Source: a virus
Strand: one strand, 5' to 3'
Length of the DNA: 64,000 bases
Virus record (IMG/VR): IMGVR_UViG_3300035698_031678
Coordinates: 1 to 64,000 of that record
Shown: in pieces, positions 14,566-63,758 of the stretch
Numbering within the stretch: the stretch's first letter is position 1
Layout: every line of letters starts with the position of its first letter
Position numbers and translations under genes: made by a program
Notes under the pieces: generated by a model
Told to the model about the DNA's origin: nothing
What the model saw: the letters and a program-made list of their open reading frames with translations, nothing else
The model's database searches: none

Positions 14566-15343
14566 CTGTAAGTGAGCTAACGTTAGTAAAATTGTCTTGA
14601 TTTACAAGGTACGCCATTTTCATACCGTTTTCATTTTCAGAGAAGTGTAGTTCAAACTCTGAATATGACTTGTAACCTCTAAAAACGTCAAGGGATAATG
14701 TCAATTTACCCTCTAAGTCACAGAATTTTAAACCTTGTTCTTCTGTGAATATGAAGTCTAGTGTTTTGGCGTGATTCTTGTGTCTGAATACTAGATTACC
14801 ATCATCATTCTTGAATATGGTCATAACATCCATTCTTTCGGTGTCACTTTTAGAAATCTTATGTAAACTAATTATTTCTAAAATCTTATTGCTGGTAATA
14901 TCTATTCTTGCGGTTACGCCTTTAGGTTCAGAGAAGTTCTTACTCCAAACTTCATCTGGTAAGTAATTGGCAAGTTCAAATGTTCCAGCAACAAAGTCAT
15001 AGTTTATGTAATCGTTAGATATTGTAAATTTCTTACAGATATCTTCTTCACAAGTTAGAGTTAATTTTAGGGTGGAACTACCTCTCATCCATCCAGTAAC
15101 TTTTTGCAGTAAAGAATAGTTTTGCAAAAAGAACTTAAAATGGCTCATTTTACCTTTTATTTTAACTTCTTCGTTAAAGGAAAACTTTCTGAATATTATG
15201 TTGGTTTTAGATTGGTTGAAGGCTTTTAGGTGAATGCCTTTTTCATCTATGTCCAGAACTTGATCTAATTCCATAAAACTGTTAGAACAAAAATCATGAA
15301 ATCTTTGAGAATCTAATCCCTCTATGGTTATTTTATTTGCCAT
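14555..15343 (-). CDS. Putative sliding clamp (gp45/PCNA-like)
   Basis: 262 aa; alternating beta/alpha pattern (LDIDEKGIHLKAF..SKT); located in the replication operon. Confidence 0.55.
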   Translation of the reverse strand: MANKITIEGLDSQRFHDFCSNSFMELDQVLDIDEKGIHLKAFNQSKTNIIFRKFSFNEEVKIKGKMSHFKFFLQNYSLLQKVTGWMRGSSTLKLTLTCEEDICKKFTISNDYINYDFVAGTFELANYLPDEVWSKNFSEPKGVTARIDITSNKILEIISLHKISKSDTERMDVMTIFKNDDGNLVFRHKNHAKTLDFIFTEEQGLKFCDLEGKLTLSLDVFRGYKSYSEFELHFSENENGMKMAYLVNQDNFTNVSSLTDVD

Positions 15344-15917
15344 GGTTGATGGTTATTTTGATGTTAGAACTTCTACCACCAGGGTAACGGTTTTCCAGTT
15401 TGCCTTTATTCATAGACATTATTTTGGATAGGTCGTAGTTGAAATGCTTAAACATTCCGAAGAAAGACTTGGTGGTTAAGCGATGATATTTGTCAAAGGC
15501 TTCTAGGTCAAATTCTCTGTCAAGGAAGAAAACCTTTTTGTGTAGTCCTAGTAAAGAAAGTTGATCGCAAACCAGGATTTGAGGCTCGAAATAGGAATCG
15601 GTCTTAACATTTATAGACATCAATTCATTGTAGTAAGAGTCAGGGTTTTCAGTAGAATTGGTGGCATGAAACCAAGCTGTCCAATACCATAAATAATCAC
15701 CTAATTCTAGTTGGAAATCTACGTTGTCTCTTAGTATAGCCATGGTAGAAGCCTTTCCATGATGCTTTAGTATTTCTCCAGCTTCTTCAGCCATACCAAT
15801 TTGATAATTTAATTGGTCTATTTGATTAAAATCCGCTGCAGTATTGAGCATTTCTCTCTTCACCCAGTTACCATAATCAGCTATCTTTTTTATTTCTTTT
15901 GGAGTACTTTGTATCAT
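15333..15917 (-). CDS. MazG-like all-alpha NTP pyrophosphohydrolase with a degenerate second repeat
   Basis: GMAEEAGE...LELGDYLWY and C-terminal IMSMNKGKLENRYP. Confidence 0.8.
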   Translation of the reverse strand: MIQSTPKEIKKIADYGNWVKREMLNTAADFNQIDQLNYQIGMAEEAGEILKHHGKASTMAILRDNVDFQLELGDYLWYWTAWFHATNSTENPDSYYNELMSINVKTDSYFEPQILVCDQLSLLGLHKKVFFLDREFDLEAFDKYHRLTTKSFFGMFKHFNYDLSKIMSMNKGKLENRYPGGRSSNIKITINHGK

Positions 15918-16360
15918 CTCTTTTTCGGGTTTTTTCTTCTAGAGAAATCTAATGATTTCCTATAGGTTTCTATTTCAAAAACCAATTCTTTAGGGTAATA
16001 TCTTACAAGTTCGTTTAACTCGTTTTCGGAAGTGTTTGTAATCTTCATATAACCATTAAGAATTTCTTTTTTGAACTTGCTTATTGGTGTTTTTTCCTTG
16101 GCTGGTGGTGCGGTTGGTATGTAAAAGAATTGAGGCTTTCTACCATGCCTTTTCATTAAAAACTTTTGCCACCAATCACACAATACAATTTTGTGTTCTT
16201 TAGGTATTCCTTCTACGTTCCCAACTCTGTTTACTTCTCCAGGGTACTGATTAGATAAAAATCTGTTTAGGCTGAAAAAATATTTCTTTTTTATAGAATC
16301 GGGCAATTTTTTATATTCTGCTGGTTTGAACAGCATGTCTGTAAAGTCTAATAAATCCAT
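15914..16360 (-). CDS. Putative clamp-loader small subunit (T4 gp62-like)
   Basis: YFFSLNRFLS resembles gp62 Y.PF.INR.LS; size and C-terminal helices fit. Confidence 0.5.
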   Translation of the reverse strand: MDLLDFTDMLFKPAEYKKLPDSIKKKYFFSLNRFLSNQYPGEVNRVGNVEGIPKEHKIVLCDWWQKFLMKRHGRKPQFFYIPTAPPAKEKTPISKFKKEILNGYMKITNTSENELNELVRYYPKELVFEIETYRKSLDFSRRKNPKKR

Positions 16361-16372
16361 AAATTATAAATG

Positions 16373-17482
16373 TTAAAATTCCTGTATGTTTTCTTTTTCT
16401 TCAGAACTATGATAAAGATTTTTAATGTCAAGATTGAAGCTGTTTCTTATGCCACCTAAGCCTAAGGCAATAGCTTCAGAGTTTCTTTCTCTTACTACGT
16501 TTAAATCCATAAGAGTGATATTCCTAGAAACTAATAATGAAAGTTCTTCGTCTCTAGTTGGATCATAGTCTCTACCAGTTTCTAATGCTAACAAGGAAAA
16601 AATTGAAGGTAATTTTTTCTTTTCGTAAAGATCAGATAGCTCGAAATCTATGCCTTTTTCAGCCATATTTTCGAATCTTTTCTTAGTGAAGCCAAATTCT
16701 TTTGAGCCATTTTTGGTTTTGTACTTGTAACAGCTATCTATATTATCGGAACTGTCTCCAATCAATATTTTTTTCATTAATTCTAGGTCAGGGTCTACCT
16801 TTATGTAGTTGATTAAGAATTTTTTAAAAGACTCGTAGTTGTTTTCTGTTGGTTCAGGCTTGAAAAACTCCTCAAACATGTCCACGTCTAAAATTGGTTC
16901 ATCAACTAAAGCACTCTCTAGTAGTAATGTTGAGTTATTGTTTATGTAAACCTTTGAGTTTATTGGATCGTATAAAAATACATTCTCCTTTACTTCTTGC
17001 TTAAAATCACCATCACTACTGATTATTCCAAATGCATTCTTTTTGCTACTTCTACTTCTTAATTCAGCTATTACATCATCGGCTTCAAAACCGTTTATAA
17101 CTAATGCACCTAATCCTGACTCTTTAAGGTCTTCGTAATACTTTTGAAGACAGTAAATCATACCATCTTTATCGAAACATCTAGTAGCAGTTCTAGTACT
17201 TGTCTTTTTATATTCAGGAAATATGTTGAATCTTTCACTTTTGTCAACAAATGTATCAAAAGCAAAAACAAAACTTTCTACGTCTAAGTTTTTAGTTAAT
17301 TCTAAGATAGAAACCATCTTGTTGTGTATAGAGTGTATCAAAAAGTTTTTTTCTGAATCATTTTCTAAGTAAAGCCTATCTTGTTTCATTACTTCAGGTA
17401 TTTTCTTACCTTTATATCCAGTTATGGAAGTTAAAACTTGATAAGCAATATTGCTAACATCTACTACTAGGTTGGTTTTCAT
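16373..17482 (-). CDS. rnh: 5'-3' exonuclease / flap endonuclease (T4 RNase H-like)
   Basis: LVVDVSN, FAFD, PEYK, FEADDVIA, SSDGDF, IGDSSDNI. Confidence 0.9.
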   Translation of the reverse strand: MKTNLVVDVSNIAYQVLTSITGYKGKKIPEVMKQDRLYLENDSEKNFLIHSIHNKMVSILELTKNLDVESFVFAFDTFVDKSERFNIFPEYKKTSTRTATRCFDKDGMIYCLQKYYEDLKESGLGALVINGFEADDVIAELRSRSSKKNAFGIISSDGDFKQEVKENVFLYDPINSKVYINNNSTLLLESALVDEPILDVDMFEEFFKPEPTENNYESFKKFLINYIKVDPDLELMKKILIGDSSDNIDSCYKYKTKNGSKEFGFTKKRFENMAEKGIDFELSDLYEKKKLPSIFSLLALETGRDYDPTRDEELSLLVSRNITLMDLNVVRERNSEAIALGLGGIRNSFNLDIKNLYHSSEEKENIQEF

Positions 17483-23969: not shown

Positions 23970-25468
23970 GTGAAAATTAGCTACAACATCCACCTGTATT
24001 CAAATTACATCCAACCATCTGAAAGGAACGGTTCGGATGAGGTAATGATCAATAGTGCTTACATATTTTCACGCTGTTTAAAGTCTTTTTATTTTCAAAA
24101 CACAATTCACAATTTTAAGTCTCCTAAGAAAAGGAGTATGATATGTTCTAAGCTCAAAATAAGTGAAAGAAATTATTACAGGTTTTTAAAATCTGCCTTA
24201 GAAAACGGTTTTGTATCTATAAATCCAGAAAATAAAAAATCTTAAGAATTGTTGGTGATGAAAAAATAATAAAAGGCTTTGTCACAGAAGAGAAAGAATT
24301 ATTGTATTTCCCTTACTGGAAGAAAGTGTCTTTAAACTTCAAAAATCTTTTATTCAAAGATTTTAAAGATGTATTAACTCTAGCCTCCATAAAGTATCTA
24401 AGGCAAAACAAAAGATTGTTTGCAGCTAAGAGCAGAAAAAAACACATAAAATTAAAGAATCAAAAGAAAGAACTATACCTCAATTATCTACAACAAGGTA
24501 GTACAAATATAGCTCTACAATTTGAGGAACTAAATTCAGCCTTAAGACATCATGTAGGGTTGCCAATAGAAAATGAAATTAGAAAATTAATATGGAACGA
24601 TAATTCCAGCGCAAATAGTACCAGACCGAATATTAGGAATCAAGAGATAGAAAGTTACTGGATTAGTAACGAGAAAGTCAACAAGATCAAAAACAGTGGT
24701 ATTATTAGTGCTTGCGATTATTATTCAACCATATTTCTGAAGGAACTTTACAATGACGAGTTGAGTTCTGGTTATATTGCAAAAAATGTCGGTTACAAAA
24801 AGAGTGGTGTGAATTCACTATTTGATAGAATGCAAGATAGGGGTTTTATTATAAGAAACCATAGGTATGTACACCTTGCTAGTATACCTTTTAAAAAGTA
24901 TGAAAGCTTTAGAAAAGGTGGTATGTACTCACATCTATTTGAAGAAGATGGTAATGACCTTGCTAGAAGAGTGATTTATAGACATGGTTGTGTATTGTTA
25001 CAAAGAGAAAACGATATAGTTTTTGACGACTCCATAAAATTTATGTGGGAAGAAGAAAGAACTATTGGTTTAGTAGGTAAAGACCCTATTGGATACATTT
25101 CTCCTAGATATTCAGCTATAGCTAGTAAGTTAAAGATGCGAGGATACAAAACCACTAAAGAACTTCTAGAGCTTAAAAAACTGTCCGAAAACATATTGGA
25201 AGGTTTGGATATCAAAGAAAATGAATACACCAGTGGTTTAATAATAAGTACAAATGGAGACAAAAAAACTTTAGTTGGTAAAATTAATAAAGTACCTAAT
25301 CCACAGAATATCAGTAATAAAGATTTGAAAAAGAAACTTATGGGTGGAGGATACGTCTCAAATGGAGATACGTACCATTATTTAAATAGATACTGTAAGA
25401 ACAATAATCTTAATCTCAAACAAAATGAAAGCAGAAACTATCCAGGAATACTTGACTCTGCAGCCTAA
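23970..25468 (+). pseudogene. Double winged-HTH DNA-binding protein (possible replication initiator) split by a -1 frameshift at the A6 run 24234-24239
   Basis: ORF 23970-24245 (HTH: ICSKLKISERNYYRFLKSALENGFV) continues in the -1 frame, open from 24236 (KILRIVGDEK...) into ORF 24302-25468 (HTH: IAKNVGYKKSGVNSLFDRMQDRGFI). Confidence 0.65.
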
Positions 25469-26972
25469 TGAAGTTAAAAATTTCTCATTTGATTCTAGCA
25501 ACATTGAGATATATGAGGTTAACATAGAAAATAAAACAATAATTTCTTCTTTCTCATATGAAGACCAATATGGAAATTGGGCTAAATCAAAGCCAATAGA
25601 TTTATTTGAAGCTGTAATGGTTTCAAAACGTTTTAAATTGATATTTTCTAACGATAGCGAAGAAGAGGTAAAATTCAGCTATACTATTGAGACAATAAAA
25701 GCAAATGATAAAATAGTACTGAACAGTTCTTACATTGGTCTAGGTGATTCAATGAATTTTATACTAGACTTTGGTACTTCTTTTACAGCCACAGAAATAC
25801 AACAAAATTATCAAGTAAACGTAAATTCTCCAATAGAAGTAGAATACACTAAGGTAACTCCTAAGATGGATTCTGCAGATCACATACTGGGTGAATTTTC
25901 AGAATCAAAAATATACAAGGAGTGTAAAATAAGGATGGTAACTCCAAACAATGAAGTTCCTTTAGATGAAAGTGCTGAATACACAGAATGGGGTTATCAG
26001 TTTAGTAGTTTCGAAGGTTTTTTTAGTAGCGTTTATTTTGAGTCTAAATTTGGTAAAGGCATTATACCGCAACAAAAAGATTATCTAAAGTTTAGTACAA
26101 ATGATAGAATGTTTAGAGTAAATTCTGTTACTATTTTAGAAGGAGTAAATTCATCAATCTATGGCTACAAGATCTCTCTAAAACCATACGACGTAGACAC
26201 TAGCATAGAAGGCATAGATTTAGAAACCAAAACCAAAGAGTCGGTTTATTTTGATTTAGAACAAGGTAACAAAGATAGTGTTCTAGACCCACAACAAAAT
26301 TATTCAGCTCACGTGCATCAAGATATAACTAGACTTATAGTATCAGACAGGGTTAGAATCATGGAAGAAGATGATTTTAATTACTATGATCAAGATGTAG
26401 AAAGTGTTGATCCTTCTATAGTTTACGCTAACGACATAGATTTAGTTGGTAAGAGCTTTTCAATATCTTTTTCCGCTTTTATATCTTCTTCTATAGAAAG
26501 TAAAGTAAATATTTGTTCTTTAGGTTCTTTAGAGATATACGTGGAAAATTCAACTCTTATAGTTTCTGTTGGTGATAATATAAATGCTATAAATTTTGAC
26601 TTGCTTAATTTAGAAAGTTGGAATGATATAGTTATTAACTATTATTTCAAAGAAAGAGATCTACACATTTTCATAGTAGATGATGGTTCCGTAACTCATA
26701 AAACGGTCTTGAACGGTGTTATGCCAGTTATAGCCCCTTCTGTGTTTTACATAATTGATTGTAGACACCCAATAAGAAAAATTAGAGTCTGGAAAAAAAC
26801 TATTCCAGAAGAGTACATGAGGAGAGTAATTCAATCTGAATTGGTTGAAAAACCCGAAATTGCTTACATAATTGATAATTGTAATAATATAATCAATAGT
26901 AGAACTCATTCAAGAACTAACGAAGTTTTAATGAGATATAAGAGTTCTCTAGAAACACATAGACTTAAATGA
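25425..26972 (+). CDS. Neck/head-closure protein (gp14-like) with C-terminal LamG-like domain
   Basis: DHILGEF...FESKFGKGIIPQQKDYL...RMFRV matches the gp14 pattern; C-terminal FSISF...WNDIVI...IRVWKK is LamG-like. Confidence 0.55.
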   Translation: MKAETIQEYLTLQPNEVKNFSFDSSNIEIYEVNIENKTIISSFSYEDQYGNWAKSKPIDLFEAVMVSKRFKLIFSNDSEEEVKFSYTIETIKANDKIVLNSSYIGLGDSMNFILDFGTSFTATEIQQNYQVNVNSPIEVEYTKVTPKMDSADHILGEFSESKIYKECKIRMVTPNNEVPLDESAEYTEWGYQFSSFEGFFSSVYFESKFGKGIIPQQKDYLKFSTNDRMFRVNSVTILEGVNSSIYGYKISLKPYDVDTSIEGIDLETKTKESVYFDLEQGNKDSVLDPQQNYSAHVHQDITRLIVSDRVRIMEEDDFNYYDQDVESVDPSIVYANDIDLVGKSFSISFSAFISSSIESKVNICSLGSLEIYVENSTLIVSVGDNINAINFDLLNLESWNDIVINYYFKERDLHIFIVDDGSVTHKTVLNGVMPVIAPSVFYIIDCRHPIRKIRVWKKTIPEEYMRRVIQSELVEKPEIAYIIDNCNNIINSRTHSRTNEVLMRYKSSLETHRLK

Positions 26973-27439
26973 TAAATTTATATCACTTTAACCTTTACTC
27001 TCAATATAGAAATGCTAGATATGCTAAGATAACTCTTAGGAATATTTGTAAAGAAAAGAGCGTACAGGATGTATACTATCATAGTGACGAATTTGAAAAA
27101 AGAATTCCTAATCCTAAAATGGTCGGCTTTGGTTCAATGAAACTTAGTTTACTAATACCTGATGGGGTTTCTACTGAAGAAGAACTAAATTTTTATATAG
27201 CAGATCACTCCAAGTTTATAACAGAAATGCTTGTTAATTTAGACCTCTATGGTATAATTAAAGTTAATAAAACAATCTATGCCGAAAAATACCTAGATGA
27301 TGATAAAAATCCAATAATAGATGGTGTAGTTAACTTTAAATATATACCAAAATACGGTAAATTTTACTTCACTCTGTCAATGTATTGCGTTGCAATTTTT
27401 TCCCTACTAACACTTTTGAAATATGTCTTTTACTGGTAG
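26969..27439 (+). CDS. Hypothetical protein with C-terminal transmembrane segment
   Basis: 156 aa; hydrophobic C-terminus. Confidence 0.55.
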   Translation: MINLYHFNLYSQYRNARYAKITLRNICKEKSVQDVYYHSDEFEKRIPNPKMVGFGSMKLSLLIPDGVSTEEELNFYIADHSKFITEMLVNLDLYGIIKVNKTIYAEKYLDDDKNPIIDGVVNFKYIPKYGKFYFTLSMYCVAIFSLLTLLKYVFYW

Positions 27440-28157
27440 TGCATGCAATCCTATTGATGAAACTATACTTTGGTTTTGTGATGGTTTAGGAATTAAGGAT
27501 AAAAACATATCTTTAAAATTAGAGCAATTACAAATTGATACAGAAAATATAAATAAGACTTATTATTCTGTAATACCAGGTGAAACATTGGTAATTAAGG
27601 CTAAAGGACTAATTGCAAACGTCTCTGGTGGAAATCTTAGTAAACTTGTGACTTCTAGCGCTAAAATGGCTATGAAAGTTGAGCTAGGTTACGAACAAAG
27701 CTTAAATGGTGATATAGCCACTTTCAAGTACTCTCTAAAATTTTCTGATGGATTATATTCTCCTACTTGGAATAACAACTTGTTTTCTGATTACTCTGAA
27801 GATTATTACATTGAAGACCGCACTTCCGCTCACTCTGGAACTATAGTAAATGATATTAACGATGACAAAGTTCAAAATGTTAAATTCACATATGCTGGCT
27901 ATGAGTTTAGCGTAAATGTTAACATAGTCGGAACAACCTTAGGAATAGGTGAAGTAATTTCCAACTCATCTCTATCTCCAAATTCTACAAACATTGAGTC
28001 TAGCCTCATAACCTATCTAGGTTACAAAGCGCTATTAAAATACTCTAACATTACTAGTCTGTTTTCACATATAGATGAAAGTCTATTCAAACATACTTTT
28101 AAAAACAATTCTCTTTCAGTTGTTGTTTTAGATTGTTTAGAATTTGATCTTAAATAA
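27423..28157 (+). CDS. Hypothetical (possibly virion) protein
   Basis: 244 aa, beta-rich ORF. Confidence 0.55.
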   Translation: MSFTGSACNPIDETILWFCDGLGIKDKNISLKLEQLQIDTENINKTYYSVIPGETLVIKAKGLIANVSGGNLSKLVTSSAKMAMKVELGYEQSLNGDIATFKYSLKFSDGLYSPTWNNNLFSDYSEDYYIEDRTSAHSGTIVNDINDDKVQNVKFTYAGYEFSVNVNIVGTTLGIGEVISNSSLSPNSTNIESSLITYLGYKALLKYSNITSLFSHIDESLFKHTFKNNSLSVVVLDCLEFDLK

Positions 28158-28228
28158 ATTTACTACTTGTAATTTAGTATAAGAAACTTTATTATTCTCA
28201 TAAAATTTCTAAGATTAAACATACTAAA

Positions 28229-29587
28229 ATGATAAAAAAGAATAAATTAAACTTCTTACTAGATGGTTGCGCTGGTTCTTCAGGCAAAGGTAAAATGGCT
28301 GCTTTTCTTGTTAAAAATAATAAGATAGATTACCTGGTAACTTCTAATACTGCCAATGCTTCTCACACTGTTGTAGAAAAAGGTAAAGAATATGTTTTTA
28401 AGGTACTTCCTAGTGGGGTTTTATATCACGAGAAAATAGAAAAAGTCTTTATTGCAGATGGTGCTGGATTTGTTGTTGCAGACCTTTTTAAGGAAATTGA
28501 AATGACTGGTATTCCTTTGGAAAAAATCTTCATATCACCAAGGGCAGCAATTATTACCCAAATAGACAAAGATTACGAAAACGGTCTTTGTGATTTACAA
28601 GGTGAATATTTTGAGACCCGACAAGATGGAACTCTTAGAACTGGAACTACTGCTAGTGGTTCTGGCGCTGTTCTTGCTAAAAAAGTACTAAGAATAAAAA
28701 ATCTTGTAACTGCTGGAGATTTGGAAGAACTCAAACCGTTTATAACGGATGTGGGTACTGAAATAATGAAAATAAATGGTAAAAAGACAGGTCTTTTTGA
28801 AATAGGGCAAGGTTACCCACTTTCTAACAACCATCCAATGTTTGCCCCATTTACTACTAGTAGAAATGTTACTGTGGCTGCTGCTCTAAATGATGCCATG
28901 CTAAGCCCTAGTATAGTTGGTAATGTTTTTATTAATTTTAGGACTTTTCCTATTAAGATACACAATTACAAGTATCTAGCTACAGAAGATAAGGAATACT
29001 CTTACCCAGCCAGTAGCGCAGCTTGGGTAGAAAAAAACCATTGCCCTCACCACACCATTGTGAGTGATGGCGTAACAATCACTGTTAATATCTTCAAAGA
29101 CACCTTTCTTTCTTACTACGAAAAAGACTTTGTTTTAAACGAAAGAATAGATTCTCATAGTGGCGAATTTTACCCAGATCAAGAAGAAATCACATGGGAA
29201 GAATTGAACAGCAGAATAGGTGATCCAGAGCCACCTATATTAGAATGTACAACTCTTACAAAACTACCTAGAAGAGTTGCAGAGTTTTCAAAAGAGAACC
29301 TAATAGATGCAGTTGTTCACAATGTATCACCTTTTGACACTTTTGTTAGCGTAAATTTCGCTAATTATGTAGATCCTGTACTGGAAGATTGCCATGGATC
29401 TTACAAGTGGTCAAATTCAACAAAATTCAACGATTGGTTAGTTGAAAACATAGTTAAAGTTCAAATGACCTTATTAAAAGATTATGACATCTTATTTGGA
29501 ATTGCGCTTATAGGTACAGGAGCTGAAACTGATTCTACTATTACTGTAGATGAGTATTCTACCACTAACAATACTATTACTGGATAA
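28229..29587 (+). CDS. purZ: PurZ-like N6-succino-2-amino-dAMP synthetase (adenylosuccinate synthetase family)
   Basis: GSSGKGK (Ser at the PurA Asp13 position), NASHT, GTTASG, PFTTSR, RTFPIKI, SGEFYPDQEEI, TTLTKLPRR (Leu at PurA Arg303), NFANY (replacing PurA TKLD). Confidence 0.85.
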   Translation: MIKKNKLNFLLDGCAGSSGKGKMAAFLVKNNKIDYLVTSNTANASHTVVEKGKEYVFKVLPSGVLYHEKIEKVFIADGAGFVVADLFKEIEMTGIPLEKIFISPRAAIITQIDKDYENGLCDLQGEYFETRQDGTLRTGTTASGSGAVLAKKVLRIKNLVTAGDLEELKPFITDVGTEIMKINGKKTGLFEIGQGYPLSNNHPMFAPFTTSRNVTVAAALNDAMLSPSIVGNVFINFRTFPIKIHNYKYLATEDKEYSYPASSAAWVEKNHCPHHTIVSDGVTITVNIFKDTFLSYYEKDFVLNERIDSHSGEFYPDQEEITWEELNSRIGDPEPPILECTTLTKLPRRVAEFSKENLIDAVVHNVSPFDTFVSVNFANYVDPVLEDCHGSYKWSNSTKFNDWLVENIVKVQMTLLKDYDILFGIALIGTGAETDSTITVDEYSTTNNTITG

Positions 29588-30080
29588 TTTGAATTCTAAA
29601 ACAAACCCTGGTTCTAGCGTGCAAAAGCTAGAACCAGTTTTAGAAATCTACACTGATGGCTCTTGTTGGAATAAAGGTAAAAACAAATCATATAATTTAT
29701 CCTGTTCTGTAGCTGTTTTTGTTCTAGACAACAAAATAATAGAAAAATTAGTAACCATAAGAAACCATACAACTAGTAATGTTGCCGAAATAGATGCCAT
29801 AATATTAGCTCTAGAGGTGGCTTGGGATTTAATGTACTTAAATGTAAAAATCTACACTGATTCTGAATATGCTATTAAAAGGCTGACGAGAGATATGGAT
29901 TCAGAAGTTAATTTTTCTAGTAAGTTAAAGTACGAAGGCTTTCATAACGCTATGGAAATAACTTTTCAGCATGTTAAAGGTCATAACGGTAATAAATACA
30001 ACGAAATAGCAGATAACCTCTGTAGGACTATTAGAAAAAAACACCAAAGTATAATAAAAGATTTGGATTATGAAGGGTAA
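29550..30080 (+). CDS. rnhA: Ribonuclease HI
   Basis: IYTDGSC, TSNVAE, IYTDSEY, HVKGHNGNKYNEIADNL. Confidence 0.92.
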   Translation: MSILPLTILLLDNLNSKTNPGSSVQKLEPVLEIYTDGSCWNKGKNKSYNLSCSVAVFVLDNKIIEKLVTIRNHTTSNVAEIDAIILALEVAWDLMYLNVKIYTDSEYAIKRLTRDMDSEVNFSSKLKYEGFHNAMEITFQHVKGHNGNKYNEIADNLCRTIRKKHQSIIKDLDYEG

Positions 30081-32596: not shown

Positions 32597-32658
32597 AACC
32601 AATTGATATCACATTCGTTAATTTAATTCAAAATATTGTCTAACTAAAAAATAAAACA

Positions 32659-42012: not shown

Positions 42013-42969
42013 TTAAAATTTAATGAATGAATAATTTAACGAATTAGATAATATTTCAGTTTTTTTGTTTATTAATATTTCAGACTTGTCTAGATAAGAA
42101 TATTCATTTTTTAAACTAGTTCCAAGAAATAATTTTCCATCTGTATTAAGTGTTATATTCACACCGTTAACCACCAGATTTTCCATAGCATTTATCATGC
42201 CTGATTCATCAAATATTTTGGTAGTTATATTAGAGTTTGGACACATTTCCAAACATACGTCATTATGACTTAATAATTCCATAGTCTGCATGTTTTTATA
42301 GGCTTGCACGCCATGACCTATTCTTTTTACCCTTAACTCATTAACTGCATATTCTATTTCTGAATTACCATCCAAAGGTAATTCTCCAGCATGTACCGTA
42401 AGACCAACTTTGTCAGAGTTGTGAAATATGAACATATATGCTTTCCTTAATTTTTCCATATCAGAAAGTCCGCAAGTAGCACCACTAGCATCAAAGCCTA
42501 CAATACCAAAATTTTCATACTTTACCGCTTTCCTGGCTAATATCAAAGATTCTTCCTCTGTAAAAGATTTGTCGGTTGAAATAATGATTCCAGCATGAAC
42601 ATTAAAGGCATCTTTTGCTCTGTTCAAACCTATACAAGCCTCTAGAATTATAGTATCTAAATCGTACAAGGCGTCATTATTTCTAAACATTGGGTTGAAC
42701 CTAATTTCTATGCCATCTATACCATCATCGTAAGCACTTTTAACTGCAGCATATATGCTCTCTCTTACACCCATTGGAGTACTTTGAATCATGTGAGTCA
42801 ATTTGTACTTATTGAGATACTCATTGTGATTTTTAACGCTAGTAGCAGAGAATACATTACGAAAATCACTGTAGTTTTTGAAACCTGTGTTTATTCCTTG
42901 TAACTTTGCTATTCTCCAAAGTTCTTCTGGGCTTACCATAGAACCTAAGTGAGCATGTAAATCAATCAT
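42013..42969 (-). CDS. add: Adenosine/adenylate deaminase family (amidohydrolase)
   Basis: DLHAHL, EIRFNP, VGFD, TVHAGE, RIGHG, EMCPNSN, LNTD. Confidence 0.9.
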   Translation of the reverse strand: MIDLHAHLGSMVSPEELWRIAKLQGINTGFKNYSDFRNVFSATSVKNHNEYLNKYKLTHMIQSTPMGVRESIYAAVKSAYDDGIDGIEIRFNPMFRNNDALYDLDTIILEACIGLNRAKDAFNVHAGIIISTDKSFTEEESLILARKAVKYENFGIVGFDASGATCGLSDMEKLRKAYMFIFHNSDKVGLTVHAGELPLDGNSEIEYAVNELRVKRIGHGVQAYKNMQTMELLSHNDVCLEMCPNSNITTKIFDESGMINAMENLVVNGVNITLNTDGKLFLGTSLKNEYSYLDKSEILINKKTEILSNSLNYSFIKF

Positions 42970-43674: not shown

Positions 43675-43696
43675 AAAGAAATAAACATCAGTTTCA

Positions 43697-56315: not shown

Positions 56316-59300
56316 TTATTTTAAAAAATCATCTATAGCTGAAGTAGCATCATCTGCAGCCTTGTTTAAATTTTTGGAAATATCTTCCTCAAAACCTTTT
56401 ATCTTTTCTTTATGGGCTTTGATTTGGTTTTCTAACTTTAACTTAACATCAACGTCTTCAGTTCTAGAAATTTCTTCCTCTTTTTCTGCAATTCTATTTC
56501 TCTGCTCTTTTATTTTAGATAAGATATTTGCTTCTGATTCTTTAGACTTTTGATCTTGTAGTGATTCAAGTTCAGAATCTATTTTGTCTAGTTCAGACTG
56601 CTTAGTGTCTTTGTCCAAGTTCTGATCTCCTGAAACGGTCTTTTTGTTATCTTTTAAAGACTTTATTTTTTCATCTAGAGCGGATTCGTTCATTGCATCA
56701 GAAACATTGTGCTTAACATTCATGGTTTCTAAGACTTCTTTGATTTTATCCATATCAGAATCAGAAACATTTTTGAAGACTAATTTTTTTCTATCTCCTT
56801 CTGACTTTTCAACTTCAGTACTTAAAATACCAGTCTCTATTATGTCTCCCATAAAATTATCTGCATCAGAAGCAGAATTAAAAGTTACGGTTCTATCGCT
56901 AGAATTTGACTCATCTAAACTTTTCACCAAGTTGTATCCATTGGTTTTAATGTCTAAATCCATTTCTTCCTTAGAATCAAATCTTTCAAGATGTAAGCCA
57001 TCGTTATCAAAAAGAAAATAATCTTCACCTTCTTTTTTCATGGTAACTCTGTTATCTTCATATAGCTCTTCAGAAATTTCATGACCAAAATTAGCATTCA
57101 ACATGTCTTTGTCTTCTTCTATAACAACGTCTGTACAATTTGACTCAAACAGAACTGTTTTTATTAGTGCTATTTCTCTATCGAAGAAACTTTCGTAGAG
57201 GTTGGTAAATTGATATGAATTCTTTGACTTTCTTGTTAATTTAATGTTACTACCATTAGGGTTTCTTTTGGCAATAGCTTCATTAAGGTGTGATACCAAA
57301 GAATCATCAGAATCATATTTAAAGGCTTCTAGCTTTTCACACTCAACTAAGATACCATAGAATCTTTCAATGTTATCATAGATAAGAGGATAATTAGCAA
57401 GCTCTTCTTTGTCTATCCAAGCGTGATCTTGAACTTCATCATCAGTATATTCTGTTTCTTGAGTAGTAATTTCACCCATAAAGTAGTTAGATATACTACC
57501 TTCATCATTAGCGTATTCTCCAACTCTTACTGGATTTATAATGTCTAATCCTACTTCCTCTTTACATTCTCTAATGCAACCTTCTATAGATGTTTCGCCA
57601 GTCATTACTTTACCACCTGGAAAACCCCATTTACTAGGTTCAAAGTCAGATTCTGAAGATCTTTGCATTAACAAATATTTTCCTTGTTGATCTCTGACAA
57701 TCATATCAGCGTAAATTTGCATTGGAGAATCTATACCCATTTCTAATGCTGCTTCACTAAGGTCTTTAGCGTGTTTTTTAGCATAGTTTAGCCCTTCTTT
57801 TATACCAACATTTTCTTTTATAACCTGACCTATTTTACCACCTTCATAAGGGTGTAAGTCAAATTTACTAGAAGACTGGCTTCTGATTTTAAAGTAGAAC
57901 TCTCTACCAGATTCGTCTTTGATAGTTACATCTTTACCTGAATCACCTTGGGTATTAGATGTTTGGGTAAACTTAGATTCGTTTAAGTTACCTTTTACTA
58001 TTTTGCTAAGCTCCTCTTCATCTAACCAAATGTTTATTGGTCTACCTTCATTCATTTTAAAAACACAACTTACGTCTCCGATTTTACCGACTCTAACTAC
58101 TTCGTTATTACCGATTTTTTGTGGTGGAGTTTTGAAACTTGTTATGTTGAAGTTGAAGTGTTTGTTTATTTCTTCTACAGTTTCTAACTTGGATTCAGAA
58201 TCGTCTAAGGCAAAAATGCAAATAGGGTCTACTATCTCAAGTGTATTAATAACAAAGTCTATAAATTCTTCTTGATTTTCTTTAATCAGAGCATACTCTT
58301 CTAAAGTGTGATAAGAAACTATTGTGCCATTGTATATCTTAGTGAAGCTTTCATCAATGTCAGAAAGGTCACTTTTAACCTTAAATAAGTAGTCAGTCAT
58401 ATAAACACTACCACTTTTAGTAGTTACAAGGTTTTCATCAACAGATTTAACTGTAAACAATGTATTTGGATGATCTGAATGACCGACCAGGTCACCAGCT
58501 CTTATTTTGCTTTTAGTACCAACCATTTTTGAATTGACATCAAGATTTAAAGGTGGATTTACTGGGTCAATATTCCATTCTTTAAAGCTTTTTGATTCTG
58601 ACATGTTCAATGTGTTAGCCAGAGTTAGGTCAAATTTCAGAACGCCATCTTTTAAAGAAAAAACGTAATATCCCTTAACTAACAGGTTTAATTTTTTAGC
58701 CCAGACTTTAATTTCATTCTTTATCTCCTTACCCAATTTAGTAGAAAAGAATCTTTCACCATAGGGAGTGTTGTAATTTTCAGATTTTTTAATATCAATA
58801 TCAAAACGATATACTAAATTAACCTTAGAACTATCGTTAACAAGTTCGCCATTTACATTACCAGTCTCTGAGGTGTTACCAATTTTATCTTTTAAACCAT
58901 TAATATTTGATTTAACCAAGTCTTGAGCCTTAGTAAGGTTTTTAGAAATTATTTTTTCAACATCTTTAATTTGATCTTCTATTACTTTTTTAAAAGAGTT
59001 TTTATGTCCATCAAATCCAACAGATTTCTTACCATACCAATCATCCATACTTTCAGGCAAGTTTTTCTGGTAATTTAAAAAAGGGACTCTGAAAGTTTCT
59101 AGAATTTCATTAATCCCTAAACCATTTGATAAATGTTCAACATACAAAGATTTTAAAGTAGATTTTGAGTTAAGAGTAGAATTTGAAAACACACTACTAA
59201 AGAATTCTTCATGGTTATTTTTAGAATTTCTAGATTCTAGTAACTCACCATATCCAACTGCATTACCTCTGTTTGCCATAGCTCCAGCAGCTGCTCCATC

Positions 59301-60389
59301 AGTTTCGTCTAAACGATCATATTCATCATTGAAGTTTAAGCCATACTTTTTGTAAAATAGATCGTATGACTCTTCATTTCTTTCTTCCTGACCATCAAAT
59401 TCATCAGGATCTACCCCATCTAATAAAGGTAAGTATGCATCTTCTAGGTCTGAAATACTGTTAAAAGTCTTTTTAGACTCGAAAAGGTTGGTAATTCTGT
59501 TTTCTTTTAGCTCACCAAGTATAAGAACGGTTTTTTTAGAAGATCTTGATTCTGATAACCTTTGAGCAGCGAAAACGTTTCTGTTTATTAGTTTATTTTT
59601 TAAAATTTTAACAGCAGATTCATTTAAATTAAGAAGATTGTCTTCATATTTGTCTAGTATGGCAGCTTTGATTTCTTCTTCTGAACCTGAATCGTCAAGA
59701 CCCATTTCAGCAGCCATAACTTCAATTTCAAACAGGTTTAAAGACTCTAAGTGTCTTTTAAGGCTATCAGGATCTTTGAACTTTGATTCATTTAAACCTA
59801 GAAATTCTTTTCCTTTTTTAGATATGGCATATTGCTCTATACCCATCACTGTATTGTTCATGATAAAGTCTTTACTTTGGGCTTTGTCAATCAGTTCTTT
59901 TGGAAATTCTCTATTAATTTTAGACTGGAATATTCTATCATCAACATTATCTGGTGTGATTGCGTGGAGAAGTTTAATAAGGTCTTTGTCCGAATCAGCA
60001 GATTCATTTAAGTCCATAAATTCTTTCCCCATCATGGATATAGCATATTGTTCTATGCCCATCACTTTATTGTTCATGATAAAGTCTCTACTTTGGGCTT
60101 TATCTATAAGTTCTTTTGGAAATTCTATGTCAATTTTAGATTTAAATATTCTATCATCAACATCATTTGGAGTAATTGCGTGAAGAAGTTTGATCATGTT
60201 TTTGTCTGAATCATTCGATTCGTTTAAACCGCCTACGCCTTTTATACCTTTTTCTTTTAAAAAGAATTTAATCTCTTCTTCAGCATCTTCTTTAGACATT
60301 ATAGAAATTTCATCTTGTATCAACATCCATTCATCAAATAATCGAGGATAATTGTTAGCTATGTCTAAGTTTATGAGTTCTATATTCAT
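56316..60389 (-). CDS. LNES-punctuated multidomain protein with a Nudix hydrolase domain
   Basis: Nudix box GGKVMTGETSIEGCIRECKEEVGL; more than a dozen L/M/I-x-E-S/A motifs; 72-aa tandem duplication; C-terminal coiled coil. Confidence 0.75.
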   Translation of the reverse strand: MNIELINLDIANNYPRLFDEWMLIQDEISIMSKEDAEEEIKFFLKEKGIKGVGGLNESNDSDKNMIKLLHAITPNDVDDRIFKSKIDIEFPKELIDKAQSRDFIMNNKVMGIEQYAISMMGKEFMDLNESADSDKDLIKLLHAITPDNVDDRIFQSKINREFPKELIDKAQSKDFIMNNTVMGIEQYAISKKGKEFLGLNESKFKDPDSLKRHLESLNLFEIEVMAAEMGLDDSGSEEEIKAAILDKYEDNLLNLNESAVKILKNKLINRNVFAAQRLSESRSSKKTVLILGELKENRITNLFESKKTFNSISDLEDAYLPLLDGVDPDEFDGQEERNEESYDLFYKKYGLNFNDEYDRLDETDGAAAGAMANRGNAVGYGELLESRNSKNNHEEFFSSVFSNSTLNSKSTLKSLYVEHLSNGLGINEILETFRVPFLNYQKNLPESMDDWYGKKSVGFDGHKNSFKKVIEDQIKDVEKIISKNLTKAQDLVKSNINGLKDKIGNTSETGNVNGELVNDSSKVNLVYRFDIDIKKSENYNTPYGERFFSTKLGKEIKNEIKVWAKKLNLLVKGYYVFSLKDGVLKFDLTLANTLNMSESKSFKEWNIDPVNPPLNLDVNSKMVGTKSKIRAGDLVGHSDHPNTLFTVKSVDENLVTTKSGSVYMTDYLFKVKSDLSDIDESFTKIYNGTIVSYHTLEEYALIKENQEEFIDFVINTLEIVDPICIFALDDSESKLETVEEINKHFNFNITSFKTPPQKIGNNEVVRVGKIGDVSCVFKMNEGRPINIWLDEEELSKIVKGNLNESKFTQTSNTQGDSGKDVTIKDESGREFYFKIRSQSSSKFDLHPYEGGKIGQVIKENVGIKEGLNYAKKHAKDLSEAALEMGIDSPMQIYADMIVRDQQGKYLLMQRSSESDFEPSKWGFPGGKVMTGETSIEGCIRECKEEVGLDIINPVRVGEYANDEGSISNYFMGEITTQETEYTDDEVQDHAWIDKEELANYPLIYDNIERFYGILVECEKLEAFKYDSDDSLVSHLNEAIAKRNPNGSNIKLTRKSKNSYQFTNLYESFFDREIALIKTVLFESNCTDVVIEEDKDMLNANFGHEISEELYEDNRVTMKKEGEDYFLFDNDGLHLERFDSKEEMDLDIKTNGYNLVKSLDESNSSDRTVTFNSASDADNFMGDIIETGILSTEVEKSEGDRKKLVFKNVSDSDMDKIKEVLETMNVKHNVSDAMNESALDEKIKSLKDNKKTVSGDQNLDKDTKQSELDKIDSELESLQDQKSKESEANILSKIKEQRNRIAEKEEEISRTEDVDVKLKLENQIKAHKEKIKGFEEDISKNLNKAADDATSAIDDFLK
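59796..60227 (-). repeat. Two tandem 216-bp (72-aa) units, each starting with LNES
   Basis: Units 60012-60227 and 59796-60011 are highly similar (IKLLHAITP..VDDRIF.SKI..EFPKELIDKAQS.DFIMNN.VMGIEQYAIS..GKEF). Confidence 0.95.
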
Positions 60390-63058: not shown

Positions 63059-63098
63059 TATTATCTTTCCTTAATAGGGGTTTGTTCTTCGTCAGAAA
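63059..63098 (-). repeat. 40-bp non-coding element, copy 2 (inverted relative to 23557-23596)
   Basis: Exact reverse-complement match; similarity extends to about 55 bp with 4 mismatches. Confidence 0.95.
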
Positions 63099-63112
63099 GC
63101 CAGTTTGGGAAT

Positions 63113-63149
63113 AAAAAAAAGGCTGATAGAATTTTACACTATCAGCCTT
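63113..63149 (-). terminator. Intrinsic terminator downstream of gmk
   Basis: AAGGCTGATAG...CTATCAGCCTT stem with an A8 tract (U8 on the minus strand). Confidence 0.8.
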
Positions 63150-63206
63150 CCAAAAAACAACCTTATTATTTTGTTACGTAAACTTAATTTCCTTGATATA
63201 AGGATT

Positions 63207-63758
63207 TTAAGTATCTAGCCAAATTTTTTCTGATAAACTCTTTAAGTTGAATTTAGGGTCAGTTATTTCAACATCAAAATCCTTGAAATCCTTGAATTGC
63301 TCCCAATCTGTAGTCATTCTTTTCTCAACATTGTCAGCGTTTTCCCTTTGCGATAATCTTTCTTCTCTTACATTGTCGCTTATGTTAATATAGACAACTA
63401 TCAATTTACTATTCCTTAAATGCATTGGTAACCTGTTAACGCCAGCTGGAGTCATTATGAAAAGGTTAGATTTATTAAACTCTTCTTTAGTCGTTCCATA
63501 AACAAAACCGTTAGGAAAGTACTTGAATTGCATGAATTTATCTTCACTTATCATTTTTAACATCATGTTTTCTGTAACAAAATGATAGGTTTTTCCTCCT
63601 ACTTCACCAGTTCTTGGTGGTCTAGTAGTATAGCTTATTTCAGTAGTAATATCGTTCAGTTGACTTAGCAAGTTCTTAGCGTAATCTTTACCACTTCCAC
63701 CTTGCCCTACTAAGATTATCTTTTTGTCTCTTAGCCTATTATCTTGTTCCTTATTCAT
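63207..63758 (-). CDS. gmk: Guanylate kinase
   Basis: LVGQGGSGKD, SYTTRPPRTGEV.G..YHFV, YGT. Confidence 0.92.
   Translation of the reverse strand: MNKEQDNRLRDKKIILVGQGGSGKDYAKNLLSQLNDITTEISYTTRPPRTGEVGGKTYHFVTENMMLKMISEDKFMQFKYFPNGFVYGTTKEEFNKSNLFIMTPAGVNRLPMHLRNSKLIVVYINISDNVREERLSQRENADNVEKRMTTDWEQFKDFKDFDVEITDPKFNLKSLSEKIWLDT

What the first reader, a model, noticed from the sequence alone, without database searches (positions are those of the whole stretch)
15333..63758. Dispersed candidate Z-nucleotide pathway: PurZ + MazG + guanylate kinase + adenine-nucleotide deaminase + PolB
Seen: a MazG-like gene (15333-15917), purZ (28229-29587), a deaminase (42013-42969) and gmk (63207-63758), scattered among core genes; I saw no HD-domain DatZ, DpoZ or PurB in this window. 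Established pathway: MazZ makes dGMP from dGTP, PurZ then host PurB give dZMP, guanylate kinase and NDK give dZTP, and DatZ removes dATP. Inference: the phage encodes its own dGMP supplier and dZMP kinase and may remove adenine nucleotides by deamination (or via MazG/Nudix) instead of DatZ. This would be a new, non-clustered architecture. Caveat: MazG and Gmk are common in jumbo phages without Z.
Basis: partly seen in the sequence, partly recalled or inferred. Interest (0 to 1): 0.85.

Follow-up and report, generated by a model that had tools for sequence, protein, structure and literature searches.

The report
Long-form PurZ pathway, large myovirus
A 129-kb T4-like phage carries a longer version of PurZ, the enzyme small phages use to swap adenine for 2-aminoadenine (Z) in DNA, plus its own follow-on lyase and kinase, so its DNA may contain Z, but only chemistry can show it.

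Summary
All four ORFs and the PolB gene sit at the stated coordinates. The window is the first 64 kb of a complete 129,295-bp phage record.

The 452-aa PurA homologue carries the PurZ signature. It has Ser where PurA has its catalytic Asp, the TTLTKLPRR loop, and the ATP-type NFANY motif. It falls in a well-supported "long-form" clade inside the ATP-type PurZ radiation.

Outside the window the genome also encodes PurB and an HD_3/YfbR-like hydrolase. It has no NDK, PolA, dUTPase or NDT.

In relatives, long PurZ, PurB, Gmk and MazG-family genes lie within a few kb of each other. None of 36 classical small PurZ phage records has PurB or Gmk.

The window's own MazG-like gene has no orthologue in 29 related records. 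MazG-family genes are also not specific to PurZ-carrying phages.

The deaminase belongs to an ADA subfamily that cells also carry. Its link to PurZ is only suggestive.

Z in the DNA is untested. This scan has flagged the same long-PurZ pathway before on other DNA. I found no paper describing it.

The parts
28229..29587 (+). Long-form PurZ-type synthetase (452 aa), predicted N6-succino-2-amino-(deoxy)adenylate synthase
   Evidence: The best solved-structure sequence hit is phiVC8 PurZ (6fm1, 87 bits), ahead of Pyrococcus PurA (66.6) and S-2L PurZ (61). It reads GSSGKGK, not GDEGKGK; TTLTKLPRRV, like S-2L TTVTKLPRRI; and NFANY, not TKLD. It sits in a 52-row clade (SH-aLRT 99) inside the ATP-type PurZ radiation. 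The AF2 model has pLDDT 92.6 and matches the short PurA/PurZ fold.
63207..63758 (-). Guanylate kinase (183 aa), candidate dZMP/dGMP kinase
   Evidence: PF00625 2.5e-20 and phrog_1815 2.1e-34. TIGR03263 scores 73.3 bits, below its cut-off of 160.45. Homologues lie within 10 kb of long PurZ in 6 loci. They form overlapping pairs with MazG genes in G008 and G009.
42013..42969 (-). ADA-family deaminase (318 aa) of the HxHLG[SA]/N[TS]DG subfamily; substrate unknown
   Evidence: PF00962 1.5e-39. TIGR01430 scores 151.5 bits, below its cut-off of 216.55. The metal-ligand motifs HAH, HAGE, GHG and NTD are present, but two canonical Asp positions are Gly. The family is found in 6 of 23 long-PurZ records and 0 of 6 controls. 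It lies near PurZ or PurB in L031/L120 and L046.
15333..15917 (-). MazG-like all-alpha NTP pyrophosphohydrolase candidate (194 aa); link to the pathway weak
   Evidence: phrog_229 5.9e-15 and Atlas feature hits to viral MazG clusters. There is no Pfam hit and no similarity to S-2L MazZ. No orthologue was found in 29 related records.
9217..12135 (-). Family B (T4-type) DNA polymerase, the only polymerase family found
   Evidence: PF00136 3.5e-21 and PF03104 1.2e-11. No PF00476 (PolA/DpoZ) anywhere in the genome.

Best explanation
This complete 129-kb T4-like myovirus encodes a long-form member of the PurZ clade. It also encodes its own adenylosuccinate lyase (PurB, genome 99412-100812) and its own guanylate kinase.

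Inferred mechanism:
1. PurZ condenses (d)GMP with aspartate, using ATP.
2. The phage PurB removes fumarate to give (d)ZMP.
3. The phage Gmk makes (d)ZDP.
4. A host NDK-type activity makes dZTP.
5. The T4-type PolB puts Z opposite T.

The route would therefore be largely independent of the host, unlike that of the small classical Z phages.

Adenine-nucleotide removal would not use DatZ. The candidates are an HD_3/YfbR-like 5'-deoxynucleotidase-type protein (genome 120929-121852), a MazG-like pyrophosphohydrolase and an ADA-subfamily deaminase. Their roles are conjecture.

Shown here: gene identities, signature residues, phylogenetic placement and gene linkage in relatives. Inferred: substrates, products, and Z in virion DNA (full or partial).
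For: Residues:
- Ser replaces the PurA catalytic Asp. GSSGKG is present in 119 of 120 family members.
- T341 and the TKLPRR loop match S-2L and PMBT28 PurZ. NFANY matches the ATP-type motif of PurZ rather than TKLD (E. coli PurA) or SMAD/TMLD (PurZ0).
- These residues are named as specificity determinants in bioRxiv 10.1101/2025.10.22.683976 section 8.
- Of 262 homologues held, 232 had a readable P-loop. All 232 begin G-S and none begins G-D.

Phylogeny:
- Rooted on E. coli PurA, the PurZ0 references are basal.
- The query lies in a 52-row long-form clade (SH-aLRT 99) inside a 138-row clade (96) that holds the phiVC8, S-2L, PMBT28 and JeffCo PurZ.

Linkage, by tblastn at E<=1e-5 over 86 loci:
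- PurB lies within 10 kb of PurZ in 10 loci, Gmk in 6 and ADA in 2. All are long-form loci.

Whole records, 23 long-PurZ records against 6 distant controls:
- PurB 9 vs 0, Gmk 7 vs 0, ADA 6 vs 0.
- Most of the 23 are fragments.
- The four complete long-PurZ genomes (this one, MaF61, G006, G007) all have PurZ, PurB, Gmk and HD_3. G010, at 91% complete, has PurZ and ADA only.

Classical small PurZ records: PurB 0 of 36 and Gmk 0 of 36.

The linked kinase is a guanylate kinase, which the Z literature names as the dZMP kinase. It is not an adenylate kinase.
Against: - No chemistry: nothing here shows Z in any DNA of this clade.
- The protein scores 132.9 bits on NCBIfam's PurZ model (cut-off 300), about the same as on an archaeal-type PurA model (127.7).
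- The fold search ranks Pyrococcus PurA first, so the fold does not separate PurZ from archaeal PurA.
- The aromatic residue before the P-loop (F12 of phiVC8) is Ala here, and Ala in 83 of 120 family members.
- There are inserts of 14 and 63 residues and a C-terminal extension of unknown effect.
- There is no DatZ-type, DUF550/MazZ-type, DutZ-type or DmtZ-type helper and no DpoZ. Full replacement of A is therefore not assured.
- The tree has one PurA outgroup, no archaeal PurA, and SH-aLRT support only.
- The controls are few and distant (TerL 24-27% identical).
- Most records are fragments, so absences mean little.
Confidence: 0.6

Rival explanations
1. Only part of the proposed set is a pathway. 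PurZ, PurB and Gmk work together. The window's MazG-like gene and the ADA-family deaminase are ordinary, independent nucleotide-housekeeping genes of large phages, with no role in removing adenine nucleotides.
For: - P0263 has no orthologue in 29 related records, including the nearest relative MaF61.
- phrog_229 genes occur in 8 of 23 long-PurZ records and 2 of 6 controls.
- The three complete relatives MaF61, G006 and G007 lack the deaminase.
- All 120 best deaminase homologues share its unusual motifs, including proteins on 0.5-1.5 Mb cellular contigs.
- Two further ADA-bearing viral fragments have no PF00709 hit.
Against: - MazG-family genes lie next to Gmk, PurB or PurZ in G002, G003, G006, G007, G008 and G009. 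In G008 and G009 they form overlapping ORF pairs with Gmk.
- ADA lies about 1 kb from PurB on the same strand in G012, and 2 kb from PurZ in L046.
- The PurZ and ADA hit tables share five longest-contig lengths.
- ADA is found in 6 of 23 long-PurZ records against 0 of 6 controls.
Confidence: 0.4
2. The enzymes make 2-aminoadenine nucleotides, or another 2-amino-purine product, without whole-genome replacement. The outcome would be partial substitution, or ribonucleotide products routed through the phage's ribonucleotide reductase, or products used for another purpose.
For: - No dedicated dATP triphosphohydrolase and no Z-selective polymerase was found.
- The phage encodes RNR alpha and beta.
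- Deoxy versus ribo preference cannot be read from the sequence.
- The 63-residue insert is a confidently folded extra subdomain.
Against: - The loop that S-2L work ties to exclusion of ribonucleotides has the PurZ length and near-identical sequence.
- S-2L achieves replacement with a non-selective PrimPol, according to the abstract of PMC8065100 (search listing).
Confidence: 0.2
3. The synthetase and lyase are auxiliary metabolic genes that boost ordinary AMP or dAMP supply (PurA-like chemistry on IMP). The deaminase and kinase are general purine salvage.
For: - PF00709 and an archaeal-type PurA model both match.
- Pyrococcus PurA is the best structural match.
- PurA, PurB and ADA together form a purine nucleotide cycle in cells (recalled).
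Against: - The catalytic Asp is replaced by Ser in 119 of 120 family members. NAR 2026 reports Asp13 conserved in 99% of its PurA group and Ser in 100% of 147 phage PurZ.
- The GTP-specifying TKLD motif is replaced by NFANY.
- The linked kinase is guanylate kinase, not adenylate kinase.
- None of the top 150 representatives carries GDEGKG.
Confidence: 0.07

Closest known systems
PurZ (DgsS) of Vibrio phage phiVC8, cyanophage S-2L, Salmonella phage PMBT28 and Acinetobacter SH-Ab 15497-type phages (PDB 6FM1, 7ODX)
   Same: Ser for the PurA catalytic Asp, a Thr-rich extended loop (TT.TKLPRR as in S-2L and PMBT28), the ATP-type NF.NY motif, the short archaeal-PurA-like fold, and placement in the same ATP-type PurZ radiation.
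   Different: - About 25-30% identity.
- 452 aa against 343-388 aa, with inserts at 119-132 and 246-308 and a C-terminal extension.
- Ala instead of the aromatic residue before the P-loop.
- Carried by 90-280 kb T4-like PolB phages rather than 30-60 kb PolA or PrimPol phages.
- Not next to datZ or mazZ.
- Accompanied by phage PurB and Gmk, which 0 of 36 classical records have.
PurZ0 of Gordonia and Arthrobacter phages (PDB 7VF6)
   Same: Ser in the P-loop and the same superfamily and fold.
   Different: PurZ0 keeps a GTP-type (S/T)M(A/L)D motif and reads GSEAKG. It branches basally in the tree, apart from the query's clade. Its DutZ and DmtZ helpers are absent here.
Archaeal short PurA (Pyrococcus horikoshii, PDB 5K7X/2D7U)
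   Same: Best structural match (TM by target 0.90), with an NCBIfam score similar to that of the PurZ model.
   Different: PurA chemistry needs the catalytic Asp and GTP recognition, as shown for E. coli PurA. That archaeal PurA also keeps them is recalled, not seen. The query has Ser and NFANY.
DatZ / MazZ / DpoZ helpers of classical Z clusters
   Same: The genome has an HD_3/YfbR-superfamily protein and a MazG-like protein. These are the broad superfamilies to which DatZ and MazZ belong.
   Different: - The HD protein's best PHROG is the 5'-deoxynucleotidase family phrog_318. S-2L DatZ falls in phrog_7076, which the HD protein does not hit. They share only a weak phrog_6047 hit.
- The MazG-like protein has no similarity to S-2L MazZ and falls in different PHROGs.
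- There is no PolA at all.
Flavobacterium phage MaF61 (PQ858689, 167.8 kb myovirus)
   Same: Nearest cultured relative: PurZ 56% and TerL 52% identical. It also has PurB, Gmk, an HD_3 protein and a phrog_229 hit.
   Different: It has no ADA-family gene and no orthologue of the window's MazG-like ORF. Its paper, in the passages I read, does not mention adenylosuccinate genes or modified DNA.

Membership tests
PurZ (ATP-type) | Ser in place of PurA catalytic Asp13 in the P-loop | tested here: met
   GSSGKGK against E. coli GDEGKGK. Ser is present in 119 of 120 family members.
PurZ (ATP-type) | ATP-type base-recognition residues (phiVC8 F295, Y298) in place of the PurA TKLD / PurZ0 (S/T)M(A/L)D GTP motif | tested here: met
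   NFANY (F377, Y380) aligns with NFCNY of phiVC8. F377 is present in 120 of 120 members. Position 380 is Y in 85, W in 16, F in 10 and H in 9.
PurZ (ATP-type) | Thr at phiVC8 T262 and the lengthened TT.TK..RR loop | tested here: met
   T341 in TTLTKLPRRV. S-2L reads TTVTKLPRRI and E. coli ATTGRRRRTGW.
PurZ (ATP-type) | Aromatic residue at phiVC8 F12, said to help accommodate the 2-amino group | tested here: not met
   A15 in this protein. Across the family the position is Ala in 83 and Phe in 21 of 120; MaF61 has Phe.
PurZ (ATP-type) | Phylogenetic placement inside the PurZ group | tested here: met
   The query is in a 52-row clade (SH-aLRT 99) within a 138-row clade (96) that holds four PurZ references, with PurZ0 basal. 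Caveats: one PurA outgroup, a quick search, and no bootstrap.
PurZ (ATP-type) | Score above NCBIfam NF038379 cut-off | tested here: not met
   132.9 bits against a cut-off of 300.
PurZ (ATP-type) | Catalysis: dGMP + Asp + ATP gives dSMP; Z in virion DNA | not testable with these tools
   Needs enzyme assays and nucleoside LC-MS.
Adenylosuccinate lyase (PurB) | Lyase_1 domain plus ADSL C-terminal domain | tested here: met
   PF00206 8.1e-21 and PF08328 1.2e-12 in the 466-aa ORF at genome 99412-100812.
Guanylate kinase | PF00625 domain; NCBIfam equivalog TIGR03263 | tested here: inconclusive
   PF00625 scores 73.4 bits, above its cut-off of 25.2. TIGR03263 scores 73.3 bits, below its cut-off of 160.45.
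DatZ (dATP triphosphohydrolase) | HD_3/YfbR-like domain and membership of the DatZ family | tested here: not met
   - PF13023 scores 23.9 bits, just above its cut-off of 22.5. PF12917 scores 18, below 25.9.
- The best PHROG is phrog_318, 'deoxyribonucleoside 5' monophosphate phosphatase', at 3.3e-31. There is no hit to phrog_7076, where S-2L DatZ falls.
- BLAST against S-2L DatZ gives E 0.007 over 48 aa.
- The other HD protein (89376-89870) resembles a (p)ppApp hydrolase.
MazZ / DUF550 (dGTP/dATP pyrophosphohydrolase of Z clusters) | Similarity to MazZ or to PF04447 | tested here: not met
   There is no alignment to S-2L MazZ, and the PHROGs differ (phrog_229 against 9147/4826/801). PF04447 was not found, but that search's control rang nowhere, so it is uninformative.
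Adenosine deaminase (canonical ADA equivalog) | PF00962 fold with the metal ligands plus the two substrate-binding Asp (HxHLD, NTDD) | tested here: not met
   PF00962 is met and TIGR01430 is below its cut-off. Both Asp positions are Gly here. They are Gly or another small residue, never Asp, in all 120 best homologues. The roles of these Asp residues in mouse ADA are recalled.
DpoZ | Family A polymerase | tested here: not met
   No PF00476 in the genome. The polymerase is family B.

The most novel reading that the evidence does not exclude
Large T4-like phages replace adenine by Z with an unspecialised family B polymerase. They can do so because they carry a different way of disposing of adenine nucleotides than DatZ. 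A MazG-family pyrophosphohydrolase would make dAMP (and dGMP). An HD_3 5'-deoxynucleotidase would take dAMP to dA. The unusual ADA-subfamily deaminase would then convert the adenine nucleoside or nucleotide irreversibly to the hypoxanthine form. That product could even feed back into guanine nucleotides, and so into Z.
Probability: 0.15. Interest if true: 0.85.

Novelty: new variant of a known kind. Interest (0 to 1): 0.68.

Why it matters
Papers describe Z-DNA biosynthesis in small sipho- and podoviruses. These phages borrow host PurB and guanylate kinase and rely on DatZ, MazZ and often DpoZ.

If the long-form clade is active, Z chemistry extends to large T4-like myoviruses of 90-280 kb, probably infecting Bacteroidota. 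These phages have a phage-encoded downstream pathway, a family B polymerase and a different or absent adenine-removal system.

The family is large: 253 hits at E<=1e-5. Some members carry inteins.

A cultured member exists, Flavobacterium phage MaF61, so the question can be tested directly by nucleoside mass spectrometry. The result would also show whether a self-sufficient three-gene core (PurZ, PurB, Gmk) is a portable module for making Z nucleotides.

Tried and rejected
- **Megablast of window 24000-44000 against phage records:** no match.
- **HD protein at genome 89376-89870 as DatZ:** rejected. It resembles a small (p)ppApp hydrolase (7smg, 1.4e-16).
  - A TerL alignment found only 10 IMG/VR loci.
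  - Among cultured phages, only MaF61 is close; the rest are 24-27% identical.
  - The six controls (G023, G024, PTm1, pT24, MA9V-1, Moby) are therefore distant and few, and the 2x2 counts are weak.
- **Single-sequence AF2 of the MazG-like protein:** failed (pLDDT 34) and was not used.
- **PF04447 search:** its control rang nowhere, so it is uninformative.
- **173-aa ORF beside PurB (98149-98670), conserved next to PurB in MaF61 and L018-L021:**
  - It has no Pfam or PHROG hit.
  - The Atlas gives only a weak lead to baseplate gp53.
  - I dropped it as a pathway candidate.
- **Neighbours of PurZ, PurB and Gmk in relatives:** no informative Pfam hits.
- **ADA-first route into IMG/VR:** only 4 loci. 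Two are already known long-PurZ records. Two are 14% and 28% complete fragments without PF00709. This is inconclusive.
- **Sequencing runs:** three DNA runs kept as contigs only, with no RNA holder listed. Read laying was not used, because contigs cannot show base modification.
- **Supplements:** closed. The supplementary figures and tables of NAR 2026, and the supplementary table of the bioRxiv paper, may list viral PurA homologues or residues that bear on novelty. I could not see them.
- **Recalled only, not seen:** the Science 2021 papers on PurZ, the PurZ0 paper, and the structural literature on ADA and YfbR.

Full report
**What is there**

The window is bases 1-64000 of a single 129,295-bp virus record with direct terminal repeats and an estimated completeness of 100. 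GC content is about 32%.

- The 452-aa ORF (28229-29587) matches PF00709 only over residues 16-156 (6e-20). It matches phrog_1211, '2-aminooxy adenylosuccinate synthetase', at 9.2e-33.
- The 318-aa ORF matches A_deaminase at 1.5e-39.
- The 183-aa ORF matches Guanylate_kin at 2.5e-20.
- The 194-aa ORF has no Pfam hit. It matches phrog_229, 'MazG-like pyrophosphatase', at 5.9e-15, and viral MazG clusters in the ESM Atlas.
- PolB is the 972-aa ORF at 9217-12135.
- A T4-type large terminase (30070-31947) and a sheath-like protein mark the phage as a T4-like myovirus.
- The nearest cultured relative is Flavobacterium phage MaF61, at 56% for PurZ and 52% for TerL. Megablast against phage records finds nothing.

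**Is the synthetase a PurZ?**

Against solved structures, the best sequence hit is phiVC8 PurZ (87 bits). Pyrococcus PurA follows at 66.6 and S-2L PurZ at 61.

I aligned the protein with E. coli PurA, two PurZ0, four PurZ and family members. Three sites separate the classes:

| Site | E. coli PurA | PurZ0 | PurZ | This protein |
|---|---|---|---|---|
| P-loop | GDEGKGK | GSEAKG | GSTGKG | GSSGKGK |
| Substrate loop | ATTGRRRRTGW | not compared here | TTVTKLPRRI (S-2L) | TTLTKLPRRV |
| Nucleotide-donor motif | TKLD | SMAD / TMLD | NFCNY / NFAQY | NFANY |

The positions corresponding to phiVC8 S14, T262, F295 and Y298 are named as specificity residues, and an S14D change is reported to abolish selectivity (bioRxiv 10.1101/2025.10.22.683976, section 8). 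NAR 2026 (PMC12884076, section 24) reports Asp13 conserved in 99% of its PurA group and Ser in 100% of 147 phage PurZ.

One named residue is not kept. F12 of phiVC8 is Ala here.

The family is large. A search found 253 proteins at E<=1e-5. The best 120 are 37-59% identical and about 390-670 aa long, on contigs up to 281 kb. In my alignment of those 120, Ser17 is present in 119, F377 in 120, and TKLPRR is nearly invariant. An exhaustive search of 50%-identity representatives found 1512 clusters at E<=1e-3. Of all 262 proteins then held, 232 had a readable P-loop, and all 232 begin G-S.

I built a tree of 148 rows, made of 9 references and 139 proteins of 320-500 aa. I left out fragments, intein-bearing forms and 93 of the first 120 hits. 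The method was an IQ-TREE quick search with LG+G4 and SH-aLRT support, rooted on E. coli PurA. It places the PurZ0 references basally. The four PurZ references form one clade (99). The query, with MaF61, lies in a 52-row long-form clade (99), nested in a 138-row clade (96) that contains the PurZ references.

An AF2 model built with a 36-sequence alignment is confident (pLDDT 92.6, pTM 0.90). The 246-308 insert is folded. Foldseek ranks Pyrococcus PurA, S-2L PurZ and phiVC8 PurZ together at the top, ahead of bacterial PurA. The fold therefore places the protein in the short PurA/PurZ class but cannot decide between them.

The score on NCBIfam's PurZ model is well below its cut-off. I read the protein as a new long-form subclade of ATP-type PurZ.

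**The rest of the genome**

- PurB is present at 99412-100812 (-), with Lyase_1 and the ADSL C-terminal domain.
- There is no NDK, no family A polymerase, no dUTPase and no NDT.
- PF04447 was not found, but that search's control failed.
- RNR alpha and beta are present.
- There are two HD proteins.
  - The one at 89376-89870 resembles a (p)ppApp hydrolase.
  - The one at 120929-121852 scores just over the HD_3 cut-off (23.9 against 22.5) and under the YfbR-like cut-off. DatZ carries these same two Pfam domains.
  - Its best PHROG is the 5'-deoxynucleotidase family phrog_318 (3.3e-31). S-2L DatZ falls in phrog_7076, which it does not hit.
  - Its database homologues are not found beside PurZ in any locus I held and do not resemble S-2L DatZ.
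  - I would not call it DatZ.

**Linkage and co-occurrence**

I searched 86 loci of up to 10 kb on each side of a PurZ homologue by tblastn at E<=1e-5, using this phage's proteins.

- PurB is found in 10 loci, Gmk in 6 and the deaminase in 2. All are long-form loci and none is a short classical PurZ locus. Some of these loci are near-copies of each other.
- Gmk lies 1-2 kb from PurZ in L010, L011 and L015.
- PurB lies 1 kb from PurZ in L018, L019 and L022.

I then searched whole records: 23 long-PurZ records and 6 distant PurZ-less T4-like controls.

| Gene / family | Long-PurZ records (of 23) | Controls (of 6) |
|---|---|---|
| PurB (PF00206) | 9 | 0 |
| Gmk (PF00625) | 7 | 0 |
| ADA (PF00962) | 6 | 0 |
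| HD_3 (PF13023) | 4 | 1 |
| phrog_229 (MazG-like) | 8 | 2 |
| PF00709 | 22 | 0 |

- Most of the 23 records are 20-60% complete, so absences say little.
- The four complete genomes (this one, MaF61, G006, G007) all have PurZ, PurB, Gmk and HD_3.
- G010, at 91% complete, has only PurZ and ADA.
- Among 36 classical short-PurZ records, PurB and Gmk are each found in 0 of 36. Thirteen of these are IMG/VR records at least 90% complete and four are cultured phages.

A phage-encoded PurB and guanylate kinase therefore mark the long-form lineage. This fits the published pathway, in which PurB and GMP kinase act after PurZ.

**MazG**

The window's MazG-like ORF has no detectable orthologue in any of the 29 records, and the family is not specific to PurZ phages. 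Even so, MazG-family genes sit beside pathway genes in six relatives:

- within 3-6 kb of PurZ or PurB in G002, G003, G006 and G007;
- as overlapping ORF pairs with Gmk in G008 and G009, where both proteins pass Pfam cut-offs.

A MazG role in the pathway is plausible for the clade. For this particular gene it is not shown. The protein is unrelated to S-2L MazZ at sequence level.

**Deaminase**

A note from this scan (e1-6165805) pointed to unusual motifs, and I checked them.

- The metal-ligand motifs are intact. The Asp of HxHLD and the second Asp of NTDD are both Gly.
- The same holds in three other deaminases from long-PurZ phages.
- It also holds in all 120 best database homologues. These include proteins on 0.5-1.5 Mb cellular contigs labelled Bacteroidota and Thaumarchaeota.
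- The protein therefore belongs to a cellular-and-viral ADA subfamily of unknown substrate, not a phage invention. Nothing here shows that it acts on nucleotides.

Its tie to PurZ is suggestive only:

- It occurs in 6 of 23 long-PurZ records against 0 of 6 controls.
- In G012, PurB, a 282-aa ORF and ADA lie collinear on one strand.
- In L046 it lies 2 kb from PurZ.
- Five longest-contig lengths are shared between the PurZ and ADA hit tables.
- MaF61, G006 and G007 lack it.

**Reading**

The best-supported explanation is a largely phage-encoded route from (d)GMP to (d)ZDP through long PurZ, PurB and Gmk. A host kinase would make the triphosphate and the T4-type PolB would incorporate it. How, or whether, adenine nucleotides are removed is open.

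Whether the DNA really contains Z, wholly or in part, is untested. That keeps my confidence near 0.6.

**Novelty**

- The papers I could search describe Z phages as small phages of Pseudomonadota, Cyanobacteriota and Actinomycetota that use host PurB and kinase.
- Text searches inside the two most relevant papers found no mention of phage PurB, guanylate kinase, deaminase, Bacteroid*, Flavobacter* or myovir*.
- Library searches gave no paper on this clade.
- The MaF61 paper does not mention these genes in the passages searched.
- Supplements were closed.
- Within this scan, the same long-PurZ pathway has been reported several times on other genomes. This is another member. Its particular points are the fully dispersed layout, the ADA-subfamily gene and the HD_3 protein.

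Noticed in passing
L046:3521-5893 (+); proteins P0125, P0132: Some long-form PurZ genes are interrupted by inteins. Hint/intein splicing domains and a LAGLIDADG endonuclease give proteins of 790-799 aa.
   Followed up: partly
genome 89376-89870 (+), beyond the window (L003:1369-1863): A 164-aa HD protein resembling a small (p)ppApp hydrolase (PDB 7smg, 1.4e-16; phrog_990). It could be an alarmone-degrading counter-defence or metabolic gene.
   Followed up: partly
window 56316-60389 (-): The 1357-aa ORF contains a NUDIX domain (PF00293, 6.1e-19) at 57393-57713. MaF61 has a large ORF annotated as a NUDIX hydrolase.
   Followed up: no
window 29550-30080 (+): An RNase H gene (PF00075, 8.2e-20) overlaps the 3' end of the PurZ gene and runs into the large terminase gene.
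   Followed up: no
window 14035-14565 (-): A 176-aa ORF whose C-terminal half matches the phage co-chaperonin GroES family (phrog_3188, 1.3e-13). It lies two genes downstream of the MazG-like ORF.
   Followed up: no
genome 98149-98670 (+), beside PurB (L091:14149-14670): A 173-aa ORF conserved next to PurB in this genome, MaF61 and L018-L021. It has no Pfam or PHROG hit. The Atlas gives a weak lead to baseplate gp53, so the adjacency is probably synteny with structural genes.
   Followed up: partly
L120:1764-2612 (-) in G012: A 282-aa ORF sits between PurB and the ADA-subfamily gene on the same strand. It has no Pfam or PHROG family hit.
   Followed up: partly
proteins P0300-P0418: The ADA subfamily with HxHLG[SA] and N[TS]DG is widespread, with 969 hits at E<=1e-10, on viral and cellular contigs. 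It falls below NCBIfam's adenosine deaminase cut-off, and its substrate appears uncharacterised.
   Followed up: partly
genome 107610-108545 (-) (L092:3610-4545): A 311-aa ORF with a weak match to an RNA polymerase sigma factor PHROG (phrog_1740, 3.1e-09). Homologues lie near PurZ in L013, L014, L023 and L025.
   Followed up: no
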